A stretch of 63,764 nt of DNA, filler included, from Neolecta irregularis DAH-3 (taxonomy: Eukaryota), in assembly GCA_001929475.1 (NCBI GenBank). It is 6 parts of 6 records of this genome, joined end to end, with 100 filler letters (N's around TTAATTAATTAA, not from the genome) between each part and the next. Parts side by side here need not be neighbours in the genome. Positions count along the whole stretch, not along the records: positions 17,889 to 43,956 come from LXFE01000288.1; 5 more parts are not named here. The stretch is one strand, 5' to 3'. Under the pieces are notes generated by a model. The model made no database searches. It saw nothing but the letters and a program-made list of their open reading frames with translations, and had not been told where the DNA came from. Below are positions 21,314-35,993 of the stretch, in pieces. Made by a program: the position numbers and the translations under genes. Each line of letters opens with the position of its first letter. The first letter of the stretch is position 1.

Positions 21314-23600
21314 TTAGTCACACGAAGACATCTTTTGGTAAAATTCCTTCACTTTTGGATCAACACAAACCATATCATCTCGAAATCCTTTAATTTCCAG
21401 TCCATCTTCACTTTTCACTCGAGAAAGCCCAACGTAGATTAGACCTGCCGCGTTTCTCCAAGTTTGATCAAAATCAACCTTGAGACAATCCAATGTCATA
21501 CCCTGTGCTGTCGTTGTCAACACAAAACAATAAGAAGAGTACATTTATGCGTTGTCAATGCCCATGCTAGAGATAACGGCATTTGAATGACTAAAACTTG
21601 AAGCTGTGAGGAGACTTGCATGGTCCATATATTCGGTAAGACGACCATCTAGAAAAAGTCTAGATGATGAAAAGCAAGAGATGTGATACCTGTTGACCGT
21701 TTCGAAACAAAACTATAGGGACATATCTGATATCATTCTCGGACAAATAATTCGCAATCCTCTTTTGATCTTCCTTTTTCAGACCTTGCAAGTGCAGAAT
21801 ACTCCATTCTTCAAATCCACTATCCAGTCAATACAATTAGAGAGGAAAAGTGGCACATGACAACTCCTCTTGAGCCGTTAACCAGGTCTTTTGTCTTATT
21901 TGTAAGAAGAACAACCTGTGAATCCTCTTTCAGTTGAACCTCTTTTTCAATCCCACAGGATTTCTCAACGTATTTTTTATATGCGGTTTGTTGATTTGCT
22001 TTACATTGTCAGCTCTCAATATTTTGAGATACATACCATACACGATTGCATTAATATCGTACTGAAACTCTGTCGAACGATTGAATGTGTGGCATTCCCC
22101 GGGAAGTAGATTAAATTCGTAGAAATTGTGGTTGCTAACCTTTTCGCGGGTTGGATATAGGTGTGTTACCTGATATTTAGTTAATTGATGACCGGAGTAA
22201 AGGATACTGCAATAGAACCAAATATTGATTTATCAAGCGGACGGGAACATCGGCGAAGCAAATTCGTTACCTGTGGAGTGATTTCTCCATATCGAATTGA
22301 ATTAAGGACATTCTGAAAGGCTCCTGATTCCTGACGAAAGTTCTGATAACATGAGAAGAAACTTGTCTAAGAAAATCACCGTTACGAGGTCAAACATCTT
22401 GAAATTTCCTTTAGCCCAAGCCGAAGAATTAAACGCGTAGCTAGATCTGTGAAAAGGGTAGATAAGCTCCCAACAGGAATCGGCAATAAAATCTTCGGTC
22501 TGGTTGTCCGAAACAACAGGACCTGACAGTCCTAATTCATTAGCCAGATAATTAAACAGTTCGTACCGCAGTCTGGACAAGTCGACTTTGTGATCTAACA
22601 TTTATCATTTTTTATTCGCCAGCAAAAAGGACATACGACTGGAGCAAGTTGGAAGAAATCTCCACTTACAATCATTTGAATACCACCTGAAATGTCGATG
22701 ACAGCCATCAAAGACAAACATACCAAACGGTTCATCTCTTCGCCTGACTGCTCGGAAAATATAATCAATGCAGTTGAAGAGAGTATCGCTGATCATGCTA
22801 ATCTCATCCAATATCAAACAATCCAACTTTCTCAACATGGTCTTTTTTTCTCTCTTCATAGAGTGCAGAATATTCTCAAACGTGTCGTTCGCAAAACCGA
22901 TTCCAATTGCTGAATGTAGCGTTACTCCACCAATGTGTAATGCTGAAATTCCAGTCGAGGCAGCGATTAGATGATTTTTATTCATCGTTTGAAGATAGCG
23001 GATAACTTCTTTTAACAAGAAAGATTTTCCGGTTCCTGCTGCACCTGTAAAAAAGATATTATGCCCTGTGATAAGATGTTTGAGAGCATGGGCTTGTTCG
23101 TGAGACAGGCCACTCGGTATAGAGTATTCAGGAACGGCCTCATTGTAGGCATTGGTGGTCTCTGCCTCGTTGGGGGCATTGATGGTCGCTGCCTCTAGCA
23201 TCTGAGAGCGGTACGATTTGATCGGTGCTGAGCAAAGTCTCAAAGATTTTGTCGGAGACCTGCCTGCGCTCCGTCTGGTCGTACTGACTTGTTCAAGCCC
23301 TTTTCCATGATCATCCAGAGATGATGCTTGTCTATTTGTCGAGAGGTTCTGGCTCCATTTCCCTCCAGCTCTGTGAATTACATTCTTGGATAATTCGCTT
23401 GAAGGTTAAAGATATTCAAAGTCAACAGTAGCAGGGCACCAAGCTGTAGAAAATCCCTTTCGTCCAATGATCGCATTGTATGACGTTTTTCTCACTTCAC
23501 TACTTGGTCTCACATATCGAAACCGATAAATTACTTCACGACTGCGGACAGTCTTCCTAGTACGGAGATACGAGCGAAACACAGCGGATTGCCAGTTACT
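21314..23600 (-). CDS. Pif1-family 5'-3' DNA helicase paralog 1 (multi-exon; start uncertain)
   Basis: GAAGTGKS, ASTGISALHIGGVTLHS, LILDEISMIS, GGIQMIVSGDFFQLAPV, YAF, LVNGSRGVV, QMPLSLAWALTTHK|AQGMTLD and GLIYVGLSRVK. Confidence 0.9.
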
Positions 23601-24482: not shown

Positions 24483-24672
24483 TGTAAGGATATACCCAGT
24501 CGGTATACCTTACAAATACAGTAATCAGGCGTTGTAGGAATAAGTAGCGGAGTTTATAGTTATACCTAGCCTAAGTTACAATACTTAGGCTAGGTGTCCC
24601 TCTACGGAGTTACAACACTTAGGCTAGAAATATATCCTGGTATTATTTGTAACTTCTGGCGTTAAGCTTACA
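24483..24672 (-). mobile_element. 190-bp solo LTR (family A) with a 5-bp TSD and internal hairpin
   Basis: TGTAAG...CTTACA termini flanked by ATATA on both sides (24478-24482, 24673-24677). Perfect 13-bp stem ACCTAGCCTAAGT/ACTTAGGCTAGGT at 24564-24595. Confidence 0.82.
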
Positions 24673-24870
24673 ATATATCTGCTCTAGTATCGCATATGGT
24701 ATATTGGTAGAAAGCAGTACTGTATTCATGTCTAACAGTCTAGGTGGGAATAGCTAGAGGAAACAACTCGACCAAAAAGGCTAGCAAGAAGCTGCTCTGG
24801 CCCCGTAGTGTTGCATCAACACAAATGCGAACCTTGTCAAGCTGCTTTCTCTTTGATTGGACGATGGATC

Positions 24871-25024
24871 TGTAAGTTTTGATACTCCGAAGTACAAATA
24901 AGACCAGGATTATAGTACTTGCCTAAGTGTTGTATCTTAGGCTAGGTATTCTAGTTACATCATGTTTATATCCGGCCATAAAGACCGCAATATTTGCCGT
25001 GTACCTGAAGGGTACATTCTTACA
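24871..25024 (+). mobile_element. Solo LTR family A copy
   Basis: TGTAAG...CTTACA termini; TACAAATAAGACCAGG and GCCTAAG...CTTAGGCTAGGTA core. TSD degenerate. Confidence 0.72.
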
Positions 25025-25170
25025 GATTTTTCCTGGACTGATCGCAATAGAGCATGTCAAGCAAGGATACTTGATGCACTAAAAAGTGAAACGCCAAATA
25101 GCCTGGGGTAGTGTCAACTGGCTTTCCCATTCTTAAAGCACTAAGAGACATTTATCACCTACACTTGAAG

Positions 25171-26253
25171 ATGATCAGGATGTTTCTCCATCCGTCCCGA
25201 GTACTCCCGGTTCTAATCCTTCTTGCGCTGGTCTGGAGTTGCAGCATGTTAATCCGGATATCATCGCGGTCTGGTCTGCCCCTGGCCCTCACATATCCCC
25301 CTGCTTCAAGGCCACGGTTCCACCTCTTGATTCCAATAAGTAGCCCTAATCTCGCCTTCTGTCGTTGTCTGAAGACCGCCTTAATAAATGGCTACTCGCC
25401 CGTGCTCATAAACTGGATGCAAGACTCTGGAAGCGAGATAAAAAACAAGTTGGCAAAGATCACCGGTGTGGGAAACTACATTTCGAAACACATTGAAAAC
25501 GATTCCGATCTCATATTGACAACGGACGGGTTCGATGTGTGGTTTCAGCAATCTTTCGAGGTGGTCATCGAATACTATTACAGTAAACCAGATCGTCAAA
25601 TTGTCTTTGGAAGCGATAAATTATGCTATCCGTATATCGAAGGTCCGATGTGCGATGAAGTCCCCAAAAGTCCAATGCCCTCAGACGTCTATGGTTCAAA
25701 TCTAGACACGGATCACATTTATACGCGCCCAAGATGGCTCAATGCCGGTGTCATTCTCGGAACGCGAAAGTACTTGAACCCGTTGTATCAAGAGGCGTTG
25801 AGGAAAAAGATTGACATGGAGAAGGCTGATCAGAAGGTATTTACGGAATTATATCATTCTGGAAAATGGGGGATCAACTTGGATTTCTGGAGTGAACTGA
25901 CATTTTCCCTTGGATGGTCTGTACACGAGGCTGTGCAGATGCCAGATTATTATTATTCCGTACGAAGCGAAGATGTTGTCTTGGGTCGTTTAAAGATTCC
26001 TCGCCGTCCACTGGTCTGGAGTTTGCTTACCGGGACTTGCCCGCCAATAGTTCATTTCCCCGGAGACTCCAGAGAAAAGTTCTATACCATGTGGTACCCA
26101 AGCTGGGTTGGTAAGTTTGATAAAAAGATTACTGAACAGATTGCACAACAAAAGATTTCCACTGATGACGGAAAGTTTGTGACTTTTGAGTCGATTTGTG
26201 GACAGATTGAAAGGGACACTTGGGCTGCGGACCAATTGCGCGATTCTTCCTGA
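25171..26253 (+). CDS. Intronless type II membrane glycosyltransferase-like protein (PLOD-GT-like)
   Basis: N-terminal TM anchor; TDGFDVWFQ (DxxD), IVFGSDKLCYP, RWLNAGVILG, ADQKVF, LDFWSELT and PPIVHFPG. Confidence 0.75.
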   Translation: MIRMFLHPSRVLPVLILLALVWSCSMLIRISSRSGLPLALTYPPASRPRFHLLIPISSPNLAFCRCLKTALINGYSPVLINWMQDSGSEIKNKLAKITGVGNYISKHIENDSDLILTTDGFDVWFQQSFEVVIEYYYSKPDRQIVFGSDKLCYPYIEGPMCDEVPKSPMPSDVYGSNLDTDHIYTRPRWLNAGVILGTRKYLNPLYQEALRKKIDMEKADQKVFTELYHSGKWGINLDFWSELTFSLGWSVHEAVQMPDYYYSVRSEDVVLGRLKIPRRPLVWSLLTGTCPPIVHFPGDSREKFYTMWYPSWVGKFDKKITEQIAQQKISTDDGKFVTFESICGQIERDTWAADQLRDSS

Positions 26254-27002: not shown

Positions 27003-29336
27003 ATGACGAAAGGCCGGAAGAAAACCCATTATGTGGTCATCGGTGGACCAAACGAGGGCATATTCACCGACTGGTATGAAACTTTGGCATTCTTAAAGTG
27101 ACGATCAAGGCCCTCTTGCAAGAAAGCATATGAAGGATTTGTAGGGGCGAGAAATAAGGGGTTCTTCTCGGAATGGGAAGCCAGAGCATTTCTGAGCGAA
27201 CACGGAAGAAAATTCACAGACATCCATGCACCGAATTCGAAAAAGCGGAAGATAGAAGAGCCGCCATCTTGCAACCCTGATGAAAACAGCCTGGGACGCA
27301 GAGACCCTTATTGTCCTTCGAAAATTACCGCCGTGCCGCCAGAAAAAGACATCTCACCAATAATCTCACCTTATTTCTCGCCCTTCCCGAGGGAAACGCC
27401 TAAGAAAGAGCATTCAGAAGGATCAAGCATCACTACTCTCCGACCATCTTATTCACCATCCCAGAAAATACTCATGAAAACCGACCTTTCCGGCTCCGAC
27501 TCTGACCGCTCTAAGATAGAGTTTGATCCTTTGCCAGCTTGTTCTCCTGAGCAACTCGATGCTCTCAGTTACGTTGTTTCAGGTCATAACACTTTCATTA
27601 CAGGACCGGCTGGCACCGGAAAATCCTTCCTTCTTGAAGAAATCCAACGTTATTTTCAAATATGTCACAGGCAATTTTTGAGCATGGCCTCAACAGGAAT
27701 TGCCGCATTACAGATTGGCGGAAGTACTCTTCATTCTGCTATGAGAATCGGAACTGTAGAGGAAGGGTTTGAATATACTTTGAAAAGAATAGGGAAAGAT
27801 AAGCGGAAAGAGATCAAGAACCTAGATTGTTTGATTTTGGACGAGGTTAGCATGATCAGCGAAATGGTACTGAATTGCGTCGATTTTGTGTTGAAGAGCA
27901 TTCGAAAGAGCGCAAAACCTTTCGGTACATCTCTTTCAGTCCTGGCTGTAATGATATTAGGTGGAATACAAATGGTTGTATGCGGCGACTTCTTCCAGTT
28001 AGGACCTGTGGTATATATGATTTGCATCTTAATTTCTAAACAAATCAGTCAAAGAGAGCTTATTGTCCAAACTGTGGTATTATGAATTGGACATCACCAG
28101 GTGAAGGAATACTAACATATAGGAATGTCTGGGCCTATACAATGTAGTCCCCATTCCAATATAACTTGCATCAACTCGAGTTGCCGGACGGAATATCCTT
28201 CGATAGCCAGATATGCGTTTGAGGCTACCTCGTGGAGCCAATGCAATTTCAAAGTAATTCAGTTGAAAAAGGTTGCGAAATATTCGAATATAGTTCACCA
28301 TTAAGGTTTTTCGTCAAAATTCGGATGTCTTCGCTGATTACTTGAATCACATTCGCCTTGGAAAAGTAACATCGGATGTTTTAGCCTTGATAAGCCGATG
28401 TTCAAGGCCACTTGATACTTCAAAATTAAATGATATTGAAGTATAACCTAACCAGACGCTCACTAAAATCATAGCCAACTCGGCTTTTTCCCACTCGCGA
28501 CAAAGCTGCACAGTACAACTACTCTCATTTCGAAAATTTGATGGGGAAATCATATGTGTACCACATAAAAACAGACTTTCAATATAAAAATAACGACGTG
28601 CCTATAATACGTGTGGAATTTAGTTATCTCTTCACTGACTCTAAATAGGAGAGAAGGTTACTGCGTATCATAAATATGTCGAAAACACCTGCGCCGTAGA
28701 ACGTTGTGTTCAGCTGAAAAAGGAGGCACAGGTTGTTCTCGTTGCCAATATATCAAAAGATCTCGTTAATGGATCGAGGGGCATTGTGATGCATGATTTC
28801 CCGTCATTTCAAATCTTACAAGCGCAGAAGTTTCATAAAATGGGGAGAGGAAATGCTTGACATATGTCGAAAAGACGCTAAAACGCAAATCCGAAACTTT
28901 CTTCTTGAGAATCAAATTAAAAAGGTGCCAAAAGTTCGGTTTGCAGATGGTAGAGAAGTATGCCAGATTTTCTTTTTTGTTAATGACAATTCAGCATGTG
29001 ATTTTACCACACGTATGGAATCTCCGCGTTACCAGTAAACTTCGAGTTTACGTTTGTCAAATCCCGCTAATTCTCGCATGGGCCTTAACGACACATAAAG
29101 GTAAGCATCAATGTTGTGTTTCCTCTTTTAATGATCTTTAAGCTCAAGGAATGACACTTGATTTCTTGTGTATCGATTTCGCGGATACTTGGAAAAACGC
29201 CGCGGGATTAGTTTATGTAGCCATGTCAAGAGCGAAAAATGAGGAAGGAATGGAGATTTGTGGATTTAGGAAAGATATGGTTTGTGCAAATAAAAGAGTT
29301 GAAAAGTTTTACGAGGGTCTCGTTGGCGATGCATGA
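27003..29336 (+). CDS. Pif1-family helicase paralog 2 with an N-terminal RNase H1-type hybrid-binding domain (multi-exon)
   Basis: ATG 27003; intron 27074-27109 joins in frame to ORF 27333. N-terminus HYVVIGGPNEGIFTDW|PSCKKAYEGFVGARNKGFFSEWEARAFL. Helicase motifs GPAGTGKS, LILDEVSMIS, GDFFQLGPV, VFRQ, LVNGSRG, QIPLILAWALTTHK|AQGMTLD and GLVYVAMSRAK. Confidence 0.9.
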
Positions 29337-30949: not shown

Positions 30950-32072
30950 AATGTTGACCTAGTTGGTGTTTTTAAATTATAGGGTTGCAGTATGTTTGGT
31001 CACCCCCAAATAGAAGTGTTTGACAAAACCTAGATGCGAAAAGAATTATGTATGGCCGGCTGTTTTTGGAACTAGGTAGATAAAACAGTCGATCATCGGT
31101 GATCTTTGATGCTCGTGAACCGCAGGAGGCTCAACGATTTGAAATCACTTTCGCGATCGAACGATGAGATACTCCACAACTACGATCCTATTAAAGGGTA
31201 ATTGTTGTTTTGACGGAGTATTGAATTTGCCGAGGGTGGTTTGTCATCTCGGCCCTGAGCTTGGGGCGATTTAGAGAAAAAGGGTCAATCCTGTCGTTCA
31301 CAAATTAATTGGAGGTCAAAGGTTTAGTGAATGGGCTGGAACATGCAAATCGAAATAAGCAAATGTCACAGAAACATCTCAACGACGATCACCTAGATAT
31401 GCAAGGAAAGATCTAAAATGTCTTTTGTCAGTGCAATATGAAAATAAAAGCTATCTAGCTAGGAATTCTGATACAAGGAGCAATTTGAGTTTCATAATCT
31501 TTATTTGCTGTACAACTATTTGCAATACCCAAATGTGTTGAGTATTCCTCATTTGAAAGGTTGTGTTGCATCCTATTATGCAATCGGCAATGAAATCAAG
31601 TTTGAAGTCTTTGAGAAAAGAAAAATTGCTATTTCTACCCATTCTATTTATTCATATTCTTTTAGAGCAGTCTCTAGATAAATTAATCTCTGCTGCGAAT
31701 CACAAAATTATCTTTTCGCTGGGTTTACCTGATGTAGAGCATGCCTCGCTAATTGTACCCCGCGTTAGAGCCCTTAATTGTAGTATATTTCTCAAATATA
31801 TGATCCCTATCGCTCTCAGCTGTATTTTTGTTTATGTCTTTGTAGATAGAATTTCTCCAGGTTTGTTCTTGCCTTGTGTCATTTACCAAGACTGATGTCC
31901 AACTGGCGAGAACATGTTCTTCCGTGAAACGTTCCGATATAAGAAAAATAGCCTCTTATATATTCTCATTTTGATCCGCAAGGGATCTTCGCCCTTGGGT
32001 TAAAAATCTATTCAAGGCGTCTGTGTACCTTACGTAATCTGTATAATACCGATTGACTTCCGACAACACCCG

Positions 32073-33461
32073 ATGGTTTTCGCGAGACCACAATCAAGCT
32101 TATTTGACCCATCTTCCAGTATGACAACTGTTACTTTATCAAACTCCAAGCCTCCCTCACCTGTACAGCTTCCTCAAGAGGGCAAGACGAGTATTCCGGC
32201 CTACGCAAAACTTGAATTTCAGAAACCGTCGTCCCTTCCACCAATCTTCATACAAACCCTCCAGGCGCTTCTCGGGAGGAAAGTCACTGCTGCAGACCAT
32301 GTTGATGTTCATCTGGGTCATCAGAAGAACATATCGCGGCATCACGCTCGCTTGTTTTATAATTTTGCGACGGGTAACTTTGAGATACTAGTACTAGGGA
32401 AAAATGGAATTTGGGTGGACGGGAGTTTTTACGGAACGGGGATGAACAGAGAACTTCGTCACGGGTATAATTTAATACATTAACAAGATTAAATTCGCAG
32501 GTCCAAGATTACGATTGGGGATACATCGTTTTGCTTTTTCTTACCAAACATGCCGATTCCTCCCACCAGTAATGAATGCGACGATCGCAACTCTGCAGAT
32601 GAAGAACAAAATGTTACAACAGAACCAGAATCACCGACATCTCCAAACTCTAAGAAGCGCAAGCTCAAACGCTCACAGTCTATAGAAAAATTAAAATTGC
32701 CGGAAGAGTTATCGTTGACACCAGAGTCTACAAAGCCCGCTATTTCCGCACAGAAACCACCTCAATCGTATGCTCAATTGATTCTTGAAATATTGAGCAC
32801 GAACCCTGAGGAGAAATTTACGTTGCCTCAGATATACCGGATGATTGCTGAGCGATACCCGTATTATGCAGAGAACAATGGTTGGCAATCAAGCATCCGT
32901 CATAATTTGTCTGGTAACAAGCTATTTAAGAAGATTCCCCGAGAAGATCACGAACCTGGGAAGGGAGCATTCTGGAGTCTCGATCGGGAGGAATTTGAAC
33001 GTGAACGAATCAAAAAGGAAGAAAAGCTTGCAGCGAGTTTGAATTTGAAGAAACGGACCAGCAATTCGCCTGATCGATGTCCTGCTAAACGGAAAAAGAA
33101 CGAAGAAGAGATTGTTAAGAGAGAAGATGTCTCGGAGGATGATAGTACAGTACGTCAAGCAACACCACATACCTTGGACATTTCCAAGACACCTCCAATA
33201 GTTCTTGATGAATCAGGAAAACTTGCATTAAATCAACTATTTTTCAGGGCGATTATGGGCGAATCAAAGGCGGATCCTCAAGGTAGTTTTAAATCGGTTC
33301 TTTGCTGATGAATAGCGATTAATGCAATTCGGTTGCTTCAGAACCATATTAATACGCAGCTTGGCCCTGCAGCCAATGATCCAAAGAATGCCGTTGCGAT
33401 TGCGAATGCACTTGCTATAGCTCTTGCACAACAAATTATACGGTCAAGGAAAGCAGGATAG
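32073..33461 (+). CDS. FHL1: FHA plus forkhead transcription factor Fhl1
   Basis: FHA AYAKLEF...IQTLQALLGRK...ISRHHARLFYNF...GKNG; forkhead KPPQSYAQLI...WQSSIRHNLS...PGKGAFW; last exon LLQNHINTQLGPAANDPKNAVAIANAL. Confidence 0.85.
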
Positions 33462-33698
33462 CAGTCTATGTTTTTGTTTTTGTGTTTTACTGGCGTTATC
33501 GGGGTTGGGAGGGATGTGTGGAGGGGATGATTGGCATTAGATGAAGCATTTCCACGCCATGTGTTTGTAAGTAGGATTTGAGAGAGTAATGCTGTTGAAT
33601 TTGCCCTGGCGATGACCGTGTGGCGTTCCAACCTCACTCCGCTTTAAATACTTGCCGCTCTTGCCTCTTCTCAGCGACTCTCTCTCGGTCCCCGGTCG

Positions 33699-35993
33699 AT
33701 GGCAGCAGCGGACCAGCCAGGCGAGTCTCCGGGACTGCGGTCCAAGATCCGGCGCGCGCTCCGCAGACGGCGCAGCAGGCCGGACGGGGTGGAAGATGAC
33801 CGGTTGATGGACATGGAGGACAGCGAGGCTGAAGCAGAAGAAGCAGCAATCGCAGTAGCAGCAGTCGCAGTCGCAGCAGTCGCAGCAGCACAGGCCGCAG
33901 GAGCAGGAGCAGGAGCTGGAGCTGGAGATGCGCTTGGGAGCACGGCCGAGTATGGCGCCGCTAGTGCGCGTGCAGAGATTGATTCGCAGCGCGACCCCGG
34001 TCCGGGCAGCGACCCTGATCCCGACTGCCTCTCCGTCAAACAGCTCCATGCTCTCTGCTGTTGGGTCTCTCACTGCGACTTCGCTGGCCGCACCGCCGCA
34101 CAGCCCCGCCCGCCCGCGCGCAAGCACCGATCCCGATGCGGCACCAGCCCCCGGCAGCAGCGCGGCATCGCCCTTTGCCAGCAAAATCGATCTCGCGCTC
34201 GCACTGCCCAGCCGGCGGCCCAGCACCGCAGACAGCTCGATCAAGGCCACCGGCTTCGCGGTCGCCACCGCAAAGCGCAACAGGGAATTCCACGCCATGT
34301 TTAGAAGCGTCCCTCCAGAAGACTACCTCATCGAAGGTGCCCTCTGCCCCAGCACCTGCCTGTCTCACCCCCGCAGATTACGGCTGCGCCCTCCAGAGAG
34401 AGATCCTCGTCCACGGCAGAATGTACGTCTCAGAGGGCCATATCTGCTTCAATTCAAACATCTTTGGATGGGTGACTAATGTATCTGCCAAGCACATCCA
34501 CCCCCGCTAATACCCCAGCTCGTCATCGCATTCTCCGAAATCGTCGCCATCGACAAGAAATCAACAGCCGTCATCTTCCCAAACGCTATCACTATAACCA
34601 CTCTGCAGCAGAATCGCGTATTGTCCGTTTTGGATATTTATTTGCTAAATTTAGCACATTTTTGCTTCCTTTATATCCAGAGACACTACGTATGACTTGA
34701 TTATCAAGATCTGGAGAATATCGCATCCCGGCTCGGGATACCCTCGTTTAGTGCTCAATGACTCTGACTTATCAGACGATGAATCAGACGATGAAGATTC
34801 TGATTCTCTTTCCGATTTCAAAAATGCGCAAAGCGACGTTATATCAGATACTAGTGCCTCAAAAATTCTCACCCCACGGCCTACAAAAAGCTCGCAGCCT
34901 CCTTTGACAAAATCTACGTCCAAGGATCAAAGTGCTGCCGCACAGCCTGTGGACTCGGGCACGCCCTCGGCAATTCCATCAGAACATGAACCCACAGAAT
35001 GCATCGATGAACATTTTGAAAAGAGTCTAATCGACTATATCATCCCTGCTAGTATGGATAAAGTATGGAATCTAATGTTTGGAGATAACACATCCTTTAT
35101 GGAAACATTTCTCCTAGTCAATCAAAAAAATACAGGTATCTTATCCTTGCCATCTCTTTTAACATAGACCTCGAAATATCTGGTTTCTCAGGCTCAAAAA
35201 CTCGTTCATATATCTTTGTAAAACATCTGTCTGCAAGCATCGGGCCCAAGCAAACAAAGTGCAACACCACCGACACAATTGAACAATTTAGTCCCCAAAC
35301 TATATCATTAGTTAGCGTAACGCAAACCCCCGATGTCCCTAACGGCAGCTCATTTTCCATAAAGACGAAATATTGCTTTTCTTGGGCCGAGAAAAATCAA
35401 ACGAGACTGAAATCAAGTTATTTCGTTGAATGGAATAAGAGTTCATGGCTAAAAGGTTTGAATTCACTTTTCCTTTGATTAAATACAAAGGACCAATTGA
35501 GAAGGGTGTAAATGAAGGACAAATAGCATATTCAAAAGACCTTTTAGAGGCTTTGAAGAAAGAATTTGAAGCACCCAGTAAAAGGAAGAGAAAAGTCAAG
35601 AGTGAAGATGCTTTTGGAGATACCTTGCAAACTCGTGCACAAAAATCTCTTTCCGAAGGAACAGAATCGAGATCTTGGACTGATTTATTCCTGAATTTTC
35701 CTTCCTCTTTACTCTCAACTTCAGGAATCATCATGCTGATGTTGCTCTTCGTCGTCGTTTTCCTCATACGCATCGAACGATCGTTATCGATTATCGGAAA
35801 ATCAGGCAGTTTTGAAGAAAATTGGAAAATCCAAGAACGTGAACTTTGGAATTGGCTTGATTCACGAGGCCTTGAAGGATCTGGAAAACCTGTTATTTTA
35901 CTAGATGAAAGTATGAAAAGGCGCGAAATAGCAGCTGCTATTAAAAGTCTGGAAAAACGTCTCGATGAATTAAAACGGAGACAGGAATTATAA
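33699..35993 (+). CDS. GRAM plus VASt (StART-like) membrane contact-site sterol transporter, Lam/Ltc family
   Basis: [76 protein letters not shown] and a C-terminal TM helix. Confidence 0.88.

What the first reader, a model, noticed from the sequence alone, without database searches (positions are those of the whole stretch)
27003..27200. Pif1 helicase fused to an RNase H1/caulimovirus P6-type RNA:DNA hybrid-binding domain
Seen: removing a 36-nt GT-AG intron (27074-27109, which contains an in-frame TGA) gives MTKGRKKTHYVVIGGPNEGIFTDWPSCKKAYEGFVGARNKGFFSEWEARAFLSEHG, continuous with the helicase ORF via an NLS-like SKKRK and a Ser/Pro linker. Established: YxVxxGxxxGIxxxWxxCxxxxxGFxGAxxKxFxxxxEAxAFL is the hybrid-binding domain (Cauli_VI) of RNase H1 and CaMV P6. 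Pif1 helicases unwind RNA:DNA hybrids well, but yeast Pif1/Rrm3/Pfh1 lack this domain. Inference: an R-loop- or retroelement-intermediate-targeted helicase; I know of no characterised fungal example. The neighbouring paralog shows no clear such domain, which suggests gain or loss after duplication.
Basis: partly seen in the sequence, partly recalled or inferred. Interest (0 to 1): 0.8.

Follow-up and report, generated by a model that had tools for sequence, protein, structure and literature searches.

The report
Hybrid-binding domain fused to PIF1 helicase
A fungal (Neolecta-type) gene really does join an RNase H1-style RNA:DNA-hybrid-binding domain to a complete PIF1 DNA helicase, but the same fusion is already present in many fungi, algae and protists and is simply unstudied.

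Summary
Removing the 36-nt GT-AG intron 27074-27109 gives an N-terminal domain that matches Pfam Cauli_VI/RNase H1 N-terminal domain over the whole profile (41.5 bits, cut-off 21). It aligns without gaps to the yeast and human RNase H1 hybrid-binding domains and folds onto 3BSU.

It continues through an NLS-bearing Ser/Pro linker into a PIF1 helicase. I rebuilt that helicase as 11 exons, 651 aa, with ten introns of 34-46 nt and all helicase motifs intact.

A GenBank protein named for Neolecta irregularis DAH-3 uses the same first intron and already carries both Pfam domains. It is cut short at 356 aa.

The novelty claim fails. The fusion occurs in Orbiliomycetes, Agaricomycetes, Cryptococcus, Puccinia, green algae, a stramenopile and a heterolobosean. 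A 2018 preprint mentions RNase H1-like motifs on amoebal PIF1s.

No transcript or biochemistry exists. Two hybrid-contact positions differ from human RNase H1. Targeting of the helicase to hybrids is the most likely mechanism but is inferred. The neighbouring paralog has at most a decayed remnant of the domain.

The parts
27003..27073 (+). Exon 1: start codon and the first 23 2/3 codons, covering strands beta1-beta2 of the hybrid-binding domain up to the split Trp24 codon.
   Evidence: Identical to the N-terminus of GenBank-derived P0118.
27074..27109 (+). Intron 1: 36 nt, GT...AG, phase 2, with an in-frame TGA at 27099-27101.
   Evidence: The same intron is removed in P0118. The gene's other nine introns are 34-46 nt.
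27024..27197 (+). RNase H1-type hybrid-binding domain (residues 8-53, interrupted by intron 1). W24 lies at 27072-27110, N39 at 27153-27155, K40 at 27156-27158, G41 at 27159-27161.
   Evidence: Pfam PF01693 at 41.5 bits. Matches to 1QHK and 3BSU by sequence. AF2 beta-beta-alpha-beta-alpha model with pLDDT 80. Foldseek top hits are 3BSU chains, TM 0.82-0.87. Coordinates.
27204..27533 (+). Linker, residues 56-165: 35% Ser+Pro+Thr, with a basic KKRK at 27240-27251 that looks like a nuclear localisation signal.
   Evidence: The NLS reading is an inference from the motif only.
27110..29336 (+). - Exons 2-11 of the PIF1 helicase: 27110-27924, 27961-28010, 28049-28076, 28123-28271, 28306-28440, 28475-28610, 28649-28785, 28823-28957, 28995-29100, 29143-29336 (stop included).
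- Motifs: Walker A 27603-27626, Walker B 27840-27854, motif III 27984-28007, IV 28306-28317, V 29076-29150, VI 29214-29231.
   Evidence: Gene model. PF05970 at 103.8-106.3 bits on the first half. 72 of 76 family-conserved columns kept. Collinear with P0119. Coordinates.
28064..28184 (+). Cys-rich insert (five Cys, C-x2-C then three more; residues 318-342) between helicase motifs III and IV. It is interrupted by intron 4 (28077-28122) and is probably a zinc ribbon.
   Evidence: Inserts with C-x2-C and 3-7 Cys at the same place occur in Orbiliomycete and Microbotryomycete relatives. Those rows group with the window protein. Zinc binding is inferred.
21320..23513 (-). Divergently oriented paralogous PIF1 gene. 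Its N-terminal region (about 23513-23300, with a 42-nt intron at 23439-23398) is at most a decayed remnant of the hybrid-binding domain. No in-frame ATG was seen upstream.
   Evidence: tblastn; frames; DNA. No Pfam hit on the N-terminal region. P0119 is its intron-free orthologue from another source. Weak in-register similarity.

Best explanation
**What it is.** Bases 27003-29336 (+) hold one nuclear gene of a Neolecta-type ascomycete. It has eleven exons and encodes a 651-aa protein with three parts:
- an N-terminal RNase H1-type hybrid-binding domain (HBD, residues about 8-53);
- a roughly 110-residue flexible Ser/Pro-rich linker with a KKRK nuclear signal;
- a complete PIF1-family SF1B helicase. 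It belongs to a fungal subfamily that carries a Cys-rich (probably zinc-ribbon) insert between motifs III and IV.

**Most likely mechanism (inferred).**
- The HBD sits in the minor groove of RNA:DNA duplexes, as in RNase H1.
- This holds the helicase at R-loops, RNA primers or similar hybrids.
- The tethered PIF1 motor loads on adjacent single-stranded DNA, moves 5'->3' and strips the RNA.
- The hybrid is therefore removed without a nuclease.

**How common it is.** The fusion is not peculiar to this organism. It recurs across fungi and other eukaryotes.

**Shown here:** the domain identities, the gene structure, the intact motifs and the wide distribution.
**Inferred:** hybrid binding, nuclear location and the division of labour between the parts.
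For: **The HBD**
- PF01693 at 41.5 bits over the whole profile, and 33.1 bits even with the intron read through.
- Gapless alignment to the yeast (1QHK, E 2.4e-4) and human (3BSU, E 3.8e-4) HBDs.
- AF2 model with pLDDT 80.1 and beta-beta-alpha-beta-alpha order.
- The five best Foldseek hits are 3BSU chains (TM by target 0.82-0.87, rmsd 1.0-1.3 A, prob 1.00), then 1QHK. The next hit has prob 0.21 or less.
- W24 and K40 correspond to human W43 and K59. These are part of the reported binding surface, and W43A abolishes binding (passage in PMC6846478).
- All six columns invariant in 11 HBD-PIF1 proteins are kept: Y10, V12, G15, W24, F42, A48.

**The helicase**
- PF05970 at 103.8-106.3 bits.
- Motifs I, Ia and II-VI were found, and 72 of 76 columns conserved at 90% or more in 18 relatives are identical.

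**One gene**
- Continuous frame from domain to helicase.
- The same first intron is used in a GenBank model.
- Ten introns of 34-46 nt.

**A host gene**
- The neighbours are a GT_PLOD-like glycosyltransferase and an FHA-Forkhead factor.
- No long repeats flank it.

**Selection for the combination**
- 9 of 115 longer hits and 4 of 120 listed near-length hits carry PF01693 with PF05970.
- 33 of the best 150 cluster representatives carry an HBD.
- 9 of 10 named examples were confirmed by Pfam.

**PIF1 and R-loops**
- PIF1 helicases are listed among R-loop-resolving helicases (passages in PMC10641170).
Against: - **No transcript.** No RNA run could be listed, so the exon 1-exon 2 junction rests on homology and on gene models.
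- **No biochemistry** exists for any HBD-PIF1 protein that I could find.
- **Two contact positions differ.** The positions of human F58 and K60 are Asn39 and Gly41. K60A lowers affinity about 10-fold, and deleting F58-K60 abolishes binding.
  - The lysine is not kept at the K60 position in any of the 11 aligned HBD-PIF1 proteins.
  - The window's Asn at the aromatic position is unusual. Nine of the other ten have Tyr or Phe there and one has His.
- **Foldseek E-values** (6e-3 and above) are weak in absolute terms because the domain is tiny.
- **A paralog does without it.** The paralog has let the domain decay, so the helicase can evidently be kept without it.
- **The GenBank model is truncated.** It stops at 356 aa. 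The full-length reading rests on my own splicing.
Confidence: 0.6

Rival explanations
1. The N-terminal domain has the HBD fold but here works as a general double-stranded RNA or nucleic-acid binding module, or as a protein-contact module. It would not be hybrid-specific, so the protein would not be a dedicated R-loop helicase.
For: - Asn39 and Gly41 replace the aromatic and the second lysine of the human contact triad.
- Loss of K60, or of the F58-K60 segment, weakens or abolishes hybrid binding in human RNase H1.
- The same Pfam family includes the caulimovirus P6 domain (family name). From recall, RNase H1 HBDs also bind dsRNA.
Against: - Trp24 and Lys40 are kept, as are all six columns invariant among 11 HBD-PIF1 proteins.
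- The repeated pairing of this domain with a helicase family reported to resolve R-loops fits hybrid targeting better than a generic role.
Confidence: 0.2
2. The domain in this copy is a decaying leftover with no function, as in the neighbouring paralog. The protein would act as a plain PIF1-like helicase.
For: - The paralog's N-terminus no longer matches Pfam.
- The window's domain scores lower (41.5 bits) than those of its relatives, which score 46-77 bits.
- It has the unusual Asn39.
Against: - It still matches the whole profile at twice the gathering score.
- It keeps every invariant column.
- It folds confidently with an 11-sequence alignment.
- It has an intact start codon and splice sites.
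Confidence: 0.1
3. The gene is a domesticated or active part of a mobile element or virus (a Helitron-type helicase or a giant-virus HBD-PIF1 gene), not a genome-maintenance gene of the host.
For: - PIF1-like helicases with Helitron_like_N appear among distant hits.
- A PF01693 gene captured by a Pleurotus helitron is described in PMC4289320 (passages).
- Earlier notes of this scan report HBD-PIF1-UNG fusions in giant viruses (unchecked leads).
Against: - No Helitron_like_N or transposase domain in the protein or in the neighbours.
- No flanking direct or long inverted repeats.
- Ten host-type micro-introns.
- The two paralogs have diverged to 48% identity or less.
- The paralog has an orthologue in another source.
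Confidence: 0.05
4. Exon 1 is not part of the helicase mRNA. The domain halves would lie next to each other by chance or as a pseudo-exon, and translation would start at an internal Met.
For: - No RNA evidence is available.
- The next in-frame Met inside the long exon lies before the helicase core (sequence reading).
Against: - Neither half of the domain alone is a domain. Only the spliced product matches the full Pfam profile.
- The intron has the same size and signals as nine others in the gene.
- Relatives in at least ten named genera have the same N-terminal arrangement, beginning within a few residues of Met1.
Confidence: 0.05

Closest known systems
HBD-PIF1 proteins of Orbiliomycetes (P0012 Orbilia blumenaviensis, P0007 Drechslerella dactyloides, P0019 Orbilia oligospora, P0031 Arthrobotrys flagrans, P0033 Arthrobotrys megalospora)
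   Same: - N-terminal PF01693 domain starting a few residues after Met1, then a linker, then a PIF1 helicase.
- A Cys-rich insert (C-x2-C, 4-5 Cys) between motifs III and IV.
- They fall in the same starred 20-row set as the window protein (SH-aLRT 96).
   Different: - Only 27-31% identical over 92-93% of the query for P0012, P0019 and P0033.
- About 200 residues longer, with an 88-89-residue insert against 60 here.
- Tyr-Lys at the human F58-K59 positions, where the window has Asn-Lys.
- None is characterised.
RNase H1 hybrid-binding domain (human, PDB 3BSU; S. cerevisiae, PDB 1QHK)
   Same: - Same Pfam family and fold, with a gapless 44-46-residue alignment.
- Trp and the first Lys of the binding surface are kept.
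   Different: - Here the domain is attached to a helicase instead of an RNase H nuclease.
- Asn39 and Gly41 stand in place of human F58 and K60.
- No mitochondrial presequence precedes it (sequence reading).
Canonical fungal PIF1 helicases (S. cerevisiae Pif1/Rrm3, S. pombe Pfh1), represented in my tree by rows that sources name PIF1 or PIF1/RRM3 (P0059, P0089, P0076)
   Same: - PF05970 helicase core with all motifs.
- PIF1 helicases are reported to suppress R-loops.
   Different: - The window protein falls outside that group, with the Cys-insert subfamily.
It was not tested here.
- The reference yeast sequences themselves were not in the tree.
HBD-PIF1 proteins of Basidiomycota and non-fungal eukaryotes (Volvariella, Abortiporus, Mycena, Termitomyces, Lyophyllum, Cryptococcus spp., Puccinia striiformis, Triparma, Pseudoscourfieldia, Mesostigma, Acrasis)
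   Same: PF01693 plus PF05970 in one protein. Both domains were confirmed by Pfam in 9 of 10 named proteins.
   Different: - They have no Cys-rich insert.
- The Agaricomycete proteins sit in the canonical-PIF1 part of the tree.
- Mesostigma has two HBDs.
- Acrasis and P0254 carry the HBD at the C-terminus.
Amoebozoan PIF1 helicases with 'RNase H1-like RNA binding' accessory motifs
   Same: The same pairing was noted bioinformatically. Andis et al., bioRxiv 10.1101/163188, cite an 'amoeboid work' as their reference 14 (passages read).
   Different: I could not find or read the cited work. It concerns a different eukaryotic supergroup, and no experiments are reported in the passage.

Membership tests
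RNase H1 N-terminal / hybrid-binding domain (Pfam PF01693, Cauli_VI) | Profile match above the curated gathering score over the whole domain | tested here: met
   41.5 bits against a cut-off of 21, E 1.6e-10, profile positions 3-44 of 44. 33.1 bits with the intron read through.
RNase H1 N-terminal / hybrid-binding domain (Pfam PF01693, Cauli_VI) | Three-stranded sheet with two helices (beta-beta-alpha-beta-alpha) that superposes on solved HBDs | tested here: met
   AF2 model with pLDDT 80.1 and elements E9-13, E19-21, H24-31, E38-42, H45-55. 3BSU chains match at TM 0.82-0.87 and rmsd 1.0-1.3 A; 1QHK is next.
RNase H1 N-terminal / hybrid-binding domain (Pfam PF01693, Cauli_VI) | Binding-surface residues corresponding to human W43, K59 and K60 (and F58) | tested here: inconclusive
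   W24 and K40 are kept. N39 stands for F58 and G41 for K60. The residues' roles come from a passage in PMC6846478.
RNase H1 N-terminal / hybrid-binding domain (Pfam PF01693, Cauli_VI) | Preferential binding of RNA:DNA hybrids | not testable with these tools
   Needs purified protein.
PIF1 family SF1B helicase (Pfam PF05970) | Profile match above the gathering score | tested here: met
   103.8 bits and 106.3 bits against a cut-off of 25.9, on the first half of the helicase.
PIF1 family SF1B helicase (Pfam PF05970) | Intact helicase motifs I, Ia and II-VI in one reading frame after splicing | tested here: met
   All seven patterns were found in the 651-aa model. 72 of 76 columns conserved at 90% or more in 18 relatives are identical.
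PIF1 family SF1B helicase (Pfam PF05970) | SH3-like 2B domain (PF21530) | tested here: inconclusive
   The spliced C-terminal half could not be handed to Pfam. The paralog's orthologue P0119 scores 17.3 bits, below the cut-off of 23.9.
PIF1 family SF1B helicase (Pfam PF05970) | ATP-dependent 5'->3' unwinding | not testable with these tools
   Needs an enzyme assay.
Canonical fungal Pif1/Rrm3/Pfh1 orthologue group | Groups with fungal proteins named PIF1 or PIF1/RRM3 in a helicase-core tree | tested here: not met
   - IQ-TREE quick, 52 rows by 514 columns. The window, P0119 and P0241 (SH-aLRT 100) lie in a 20-row set (96) with the 14 Cys-insert rows.
- That set is apart from P0059, P0089 and P0076.
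- Caveats: no bootstrap, no yeast reference sequences, and the root is not inferred.
Helitron-type PIF1-like helicase | Helitron_like_N / Rep domain in the same protein or locus | tested here: not met
   No PF14214 hit in the protein. The neighbouring ORFs are GT_PLOD, FHA and Forkhead. No flanking repeats.

The most novel reading that the evidence does not exclude
- HBD-PIF1 helicases may be an old, pan-eukaryotic way of clearing RNA:DNA hybrids without a nuclease. They would work alongside RNase H1 and have been lost from budding yeast, fission yeast and animals, which would explain why nobody has studied them.
- On this reading Neolecta keeps a specialised fungal version with an extra zinc-ribbon insert.
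- After duplication, one copy kept hybrid targeting and the other gave it up (subfunctionalisation).
Probability: 0.3. Interest if true: 0.6.

Novelty: new member of a known kind. Interest (0 to 1): 0.35.

Why it matters
- **For the R-loop field.** A reader domain for RNA:DNA hybrids wired directly to a helicase family that removes RNA from DNA is a ready-made prediction: a non-degradative hybrid remover. The architecture is widespread and untested, so one biochemical study of any member would annotate hundreds of genes.
- **For this window.** The practical gain is a corrected gene model. The gene encodes a complete 651-aa helicase rather than the truncated 356-aa database entry.
- **For evolution.** The gene belongs to a Cys-insert PIF1 subfamily distinct from canonical PIF1.
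- **Limit.** The fusion itself is not a new discovery.

Tried and rejected
- **Whole genome.** None is held for this window. I could not check copy number or look for a canonical PIF1 in the same organism.
- **RNA runs.** No RNA holder was listed.
- **Earlier findings.** Look-ups by place and by sequence returned nothing. One look-up was rejected for a bad character and repeated with corrected words.
- **Paralog N-terminus.**
  - No Pfam family at E up to 10.
  - No match to my local HBD HMM at E up to 1.
  - hhalign against the HBD alignment gave only P 0.0023 and probability 12.5% over 33 in-register columns.
  - Local alignment score was 36, reached by 9 of 2000 shuffles.
  - Single-sequence AF2 gave pLDDT 63 and pTM 0.29, all-helical and not HBD-like. 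This is uninformative at that confidence.
  - I therefore call it at most a decayed remnant.
- **A failed alignment.** A first attempt to add the spliced model to alignment A1 with --keeplength dropped its middle part. I discarded it and redid it by full realignment.
- **Tree placement.** The 182-row FastTree put the window clade elsewhere with weak support (66). I relied on the smaller IQ-TREE run instead.
- **An alternative intron.** I considered a 25- or 28-nt intron after the LVNGSRG motif. I rejected it for the 37-nt intron 28786-28822, which gives a gapless match to P0119.
- **Literature.**
  - 'Cauli_VI' with 'PIF1': 0 papers.
  - 'hybrid binding domain' with 'Pif1' and 'RNase H1': 8 reviews or papers, listing only, none about a fusion.
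  - 'PF01693' with 'helicase': 1 paper, on Pleurotus helitrons, not a PIF1 fusion.
  - The amoebal study cited by Andis et al. was not found.
  - The Neolecta genome paper and any supplements were not read. They may hold RNA support for gene models.
Full report
**1. The observation**

- The window has an ATG at 27003, the first in its open frame.
- Bases 27074-27109 start GT, end AG, are 36 nt long and contain an in-frame TGA at 27099-27101.
- Read straight through with X at the stop, the first 67 residues already match Pfam PF01693 (Cauli_VI, 'Ribonuclease H1 N-terminal domain') at 33.1 bits, E 6.4e-8, against a gathering score of 21. The match is 26.7 bits in the longer read-through.
- With the intron removed, as in stored protein P0118, the match is 41.5 bits, E 1.6e-10. 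It covers profile positions 3-44 of 44.
- A search of PDB sequences with the first 60 residues found 7 distinct sequences at E up to 1. The best were the S. cerevisiae RNase H1 N-terminal domain 1QHK (E 2.4e-4) and the human RNase H1 hybrid-binding domain 3BSU (E 3.8e-4). Both aligned without gaps over 44-46 residues.
- An AlphaFold2 model built with an 11-sequence alignment has mean pLDDT 80.1 and the element order beta-beta-alpha-beta-alpha.
- By Foldseek its five best PDB matches are chains of 3BSU (TM by target 0.82-0.87, rmsd 1.0-1.3 A, probability 1.00), followed by 1QHK. All later hits have probability 0.21 or less. The E-values (6e-3 and above) are modest, as expected for a 45-residue domain.

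**2. The gene**

- The 36-nt intron is not an oddity. To restore conserved PIF1 motifs, nine further GT-AG introns of 34-46 nt must be removed.
- This gives 11 exons, 27003-29336, and a 651-residue product (coordinates).
- The model aligns collinearly, end to end, with P0119. P0119 is a 594-aa relative encoded without interruption on a 1993-nt contig, so it is probably transcript-derived.
- That alignment also settled the one ambiguous junction, in favour of the 37-nt intron 28786-28822.
- The model has Walker A, motif Ia, Walker B and motifs III-VI. It is identical at 72 of 76 columns conserved at 90% or more among 18 relatives.
- Between the domain and the helicase lie about 110 residues with 35% Ser+Pro+Thr and a KKRK at residues 68-71. 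Reading KKRK as a nuclear signal is an inference.
- Between motifs III and IV there is a 60-residue segment with six Cys, five of them at residues 318-342, beginning C-x2-C.

**3. Whose gene it is**

- The best database hit is a GenBank protein named 'ATP-dependent DNA helicase PIF1 [Neolecta irregularis DAH-3]' (P0118, 356 aa).
- It is identical to my model over the first 296 residues, so it uses the same first intron.
- It then keeps the in-frame intron 27925-27960 and reads into intron 28077-28122. It ends after a 22-residue foreign tail.
- The window is therefore from this species or a very near relative.
- The fusion is already in the database with both Pfam domains precomputed, but the deposited model lacks helicase motifs IV-VI.

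**4. Surroundings**

- A paralogous PIF1 gene lies on the other strand at about 21320-23513.
- The genes nearby are ordinary host genes:
  - a GT_PLOD-like glycosyltransferase (25102-26253), which lies between the two helicase genes;
  - an FHA-Forkhead factor (32004-33308), downstream of the focal gene.
- No direct repeats and no long inverted repeats flank the helicase genes.
- No Helitron Rep domain is present. A mobile-element origin is therefore unlikely.

**5. The paralog's N-terminus**

- It gives no Pfam match at E up to 10 and no match to my local HBD model.
- It does show weak similarity in the right register:
  - local score 36, reached by 9 of 2000 shuffles;
  - hhalign P 0.0023 with probability only 12.5%.
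- Its 42-nt intron (23439-23398) splits the codon that aligns with Trp24, in the same phase.
- A single-sequence fold was of low confidence and not HBD-like, so it is uninformative.
- I read this as decay of an ancestral domain, not as a gain in the focal copy. This is suggestive only.
- No in-frame ATG precedes the remnant in the window.

**6. How common the architecture is**

- Among 115 longer homologues (633-2000 aa, E 1e-5 or better), 9 carry PF01693 with PF05970:
  - five Orbiliomycete proteins;
  - Mesostigma;
  - three proteins from uncultured sources.
- Among the 120 listed near-length hits, 4 do: P0118, Termitomyces, Lyophyllum and one uncultured.
- A profile of 12 family members searched against 1.84 billion cluster representatives found 102,867 proteins at E 0.001 or better.
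- Of the best 150, 33 have an HBD by my local model:
  - three of these are weak or partial (P0021, P0039, P0274);
  - two have the domain at the C-terminus (P0254, P0370).
- The profile included the HBD, so this list is enriched for it.
- Names retrieved for 20 of these representatives include:
  - Volvariella volvacea, Abortiporus biennis and Mycena citricolor;
  - two Cryptococcus species and Puccinia striiformis;
  - Triparma strigata, Pseudoscourfieldia marina, a Picozoa fragment and Acrasis kona.
- Pfam confirmed both domains in 9 of 10 named proteins. The tenth, from Pycnococcus, lacked the HBD.

**7. Placement in the family**

- I built an IQ-TREE (quick, LG+G4) tree of 52 rows that I chose, on 514 columns. 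Neither the HBD nor the Cys insert contributes columns.
- The window protein joins P0119 and P0241 (SH-aLRT 100).
- That group lies in a 20-row set (SH-aLRT 96) with all 14 rows that carry the Cys-rich insert:
  - the Orbiliomycete group, where the three named proteins carry an HBD and two unnamed rows do not;
  - Microbotryomycetes, without an HBD.
- This set is apart from rows that sources name PIF1 or PIF1/RRM3. The Agaricomycete HBD-PIF1 proteins group with those canonical rows.
- HBD-bearing rows therefore occur in several separate parts of the tree. The C-terminal cases show at least one independent fusion.
- Whether the rest reflect one old fusion with many losses or repeated fusions is not resolved.
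- Caveats:
  - there is no bootstrap and no root;
  - the yeast and human reference sequences are absent;
  - 'HBD-less' rows may simply have truncated gene models.

**8. Mechanism**

- *Shown:* an HBD of the RNase H1 type, a flexible linker and an apparently active PIF1 motor in one polypeptide.
- *From papers:*
  - Trp43, Lys59 and Lys60 form the binding surface of the human HBD. W43A abolishes hybrid binding, and K59A or K60A lower it about 10-fold (passage in PMC6846478). The W43/K59/K60 triple mutant is used as a binding-dead control (Methods passage in PMC8677849).
  - PIF1 helicases are listed among R-loop resolvers (passages in PMC10641170).
- *From recall:* PIF1 moves 5'->3' on DNA and displaces RNA efficiently.
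- *Inferred:* the HBD holds the motor at RNA:DNA hybrids (R-loops, primers, possibly telomeric hybrids) and the helicase strips the RNA.
- *Against a strong version of this:* the window keeps Trp24 and Lys40 but has Asn39 and Gly41 at the positions of human F58 and K60.
  - The lysine is not kept at the K60 position in any of the 11 aligned HBD-PIF1 proteins.
  - Asn at the aromatic position is unusual. Nine of the other ten have Tyr or Phe there and one has His.
  - Affinity or specificity may therefore be reduced.

**9. Literature**

- I found no paper on this fusion in fungi:
  - 'Cauli_VI' with 'PIF1' gave 0 papers;
  - 'PF01693' with 'helicase' gave one paper, about a helitron-captured PF01693 gene in Pleurotus, not a PIF1 fusion;
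  - the 8 papers holding 'hybrid binding domain', 'Pif1' and 'RNase H1' were seen as a listing only, and none concerns a fusion by title or abstract start.
- Andis et al. (bioRxiv 10.1101/163188; passages read) state that an amoebal study found PIF1 helicases with 'RNase H1-like RNA binding' accessory motifs. So the pairing has been noted before. I could not find that study.
- Earlier notes of this scan report HBD-PIF1-UNG fusions in giant viruses. These are unchecked leads. In one search I did see PIF1 proteins carrying a uracil-DNA glycosylase family (P0028, P0049, P0071), but without PF01693 in their precomputed lists.

**10. Verdict**

- The sequence observation and domain assignment are right, and the gene model can be extended to a complete helicase.
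- The mechanistic idea is reasonable but untested.
- The claim of rarity is wrong. This is one more member, and a rather divergent one, of a widespread, catalogued but uncharacterised architecture.
- Interest is moderate. It lies in the class as a whole, not in this locus.

Noticed in passing
window 27925-27960 and 28077-28122: The GenBank-derived model P0118 keeps the in-frame 36-nt intron 27925-27960, adding 12 extra residues inside motif III's approach. It also misses intron 28077-28122, so it ends at 356 aa without motifs IV-VI. The locus supports a 651-aa product.
   Followed up: yes
window 28064-28184; relatives P0012, P0007, P0033, P0003, P0004, P0120, P0342: A Cys-rich, probably zinc-ribbon insert lies between helicase motifs III and IV. 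It marks a fungal PIF1 subfamily (Orbiliomycetes, Microbotryomycetes, Neolecta) that groups apart from canonical PIF1. Its role is unknown.
   Followed up: partly
window 23398-23530 (- strand): The paralog's remnant N-terminal region has no in-frame ATG. The nearby ATG, just upstream of the remnant's first codon, is out of frame and is followed at once by TGA. Either an upstream exon supplies the start or this end of the gene is degenerating.
   Followed up: partly
P0370 (Acrasis kona) residues 576-619; P0254 residues 739-783: Two PIF1 helicases carry the hybrid-binding domain at the C-terminus instead of the N-terminus (77.4 bits in P0370). This shows that the two modules were joined more than once.
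   Followed up: partly
P0016 and P0020 (uncultured eukaryote contigs): These are HBD-PIF1 proteins that also carry a G-patch (PF01585) between the HBD and the helicase. P0016's first 55 residues closely resemble the window's N-terminus.
   Followed up: no
window 24562-24949: Two overlapping inverted-repeat pairs (27-32 nt arms, 85-91% complementary, about 300 nt apart) lie in the spacer between the paralog and the glycosyltransferase gene. They may be a small foldback or MITE-like element.
   Followed up: no
window 32004-33308 (+): An FHA domain ORF and a Forkhead domain ORF lie in adjacent frames. They are probably one FHA-Forkhead transcription factor gene split by a short intron.
   Followed up: no
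window 33537-34479: A GC-richer, low-complexity stretch where long ORFs are open on both strands and in several frames (Ala/Leu/Gln/Cys runs). It looks like simple-repeat coding or non-coding sequence.
   Followed up: no
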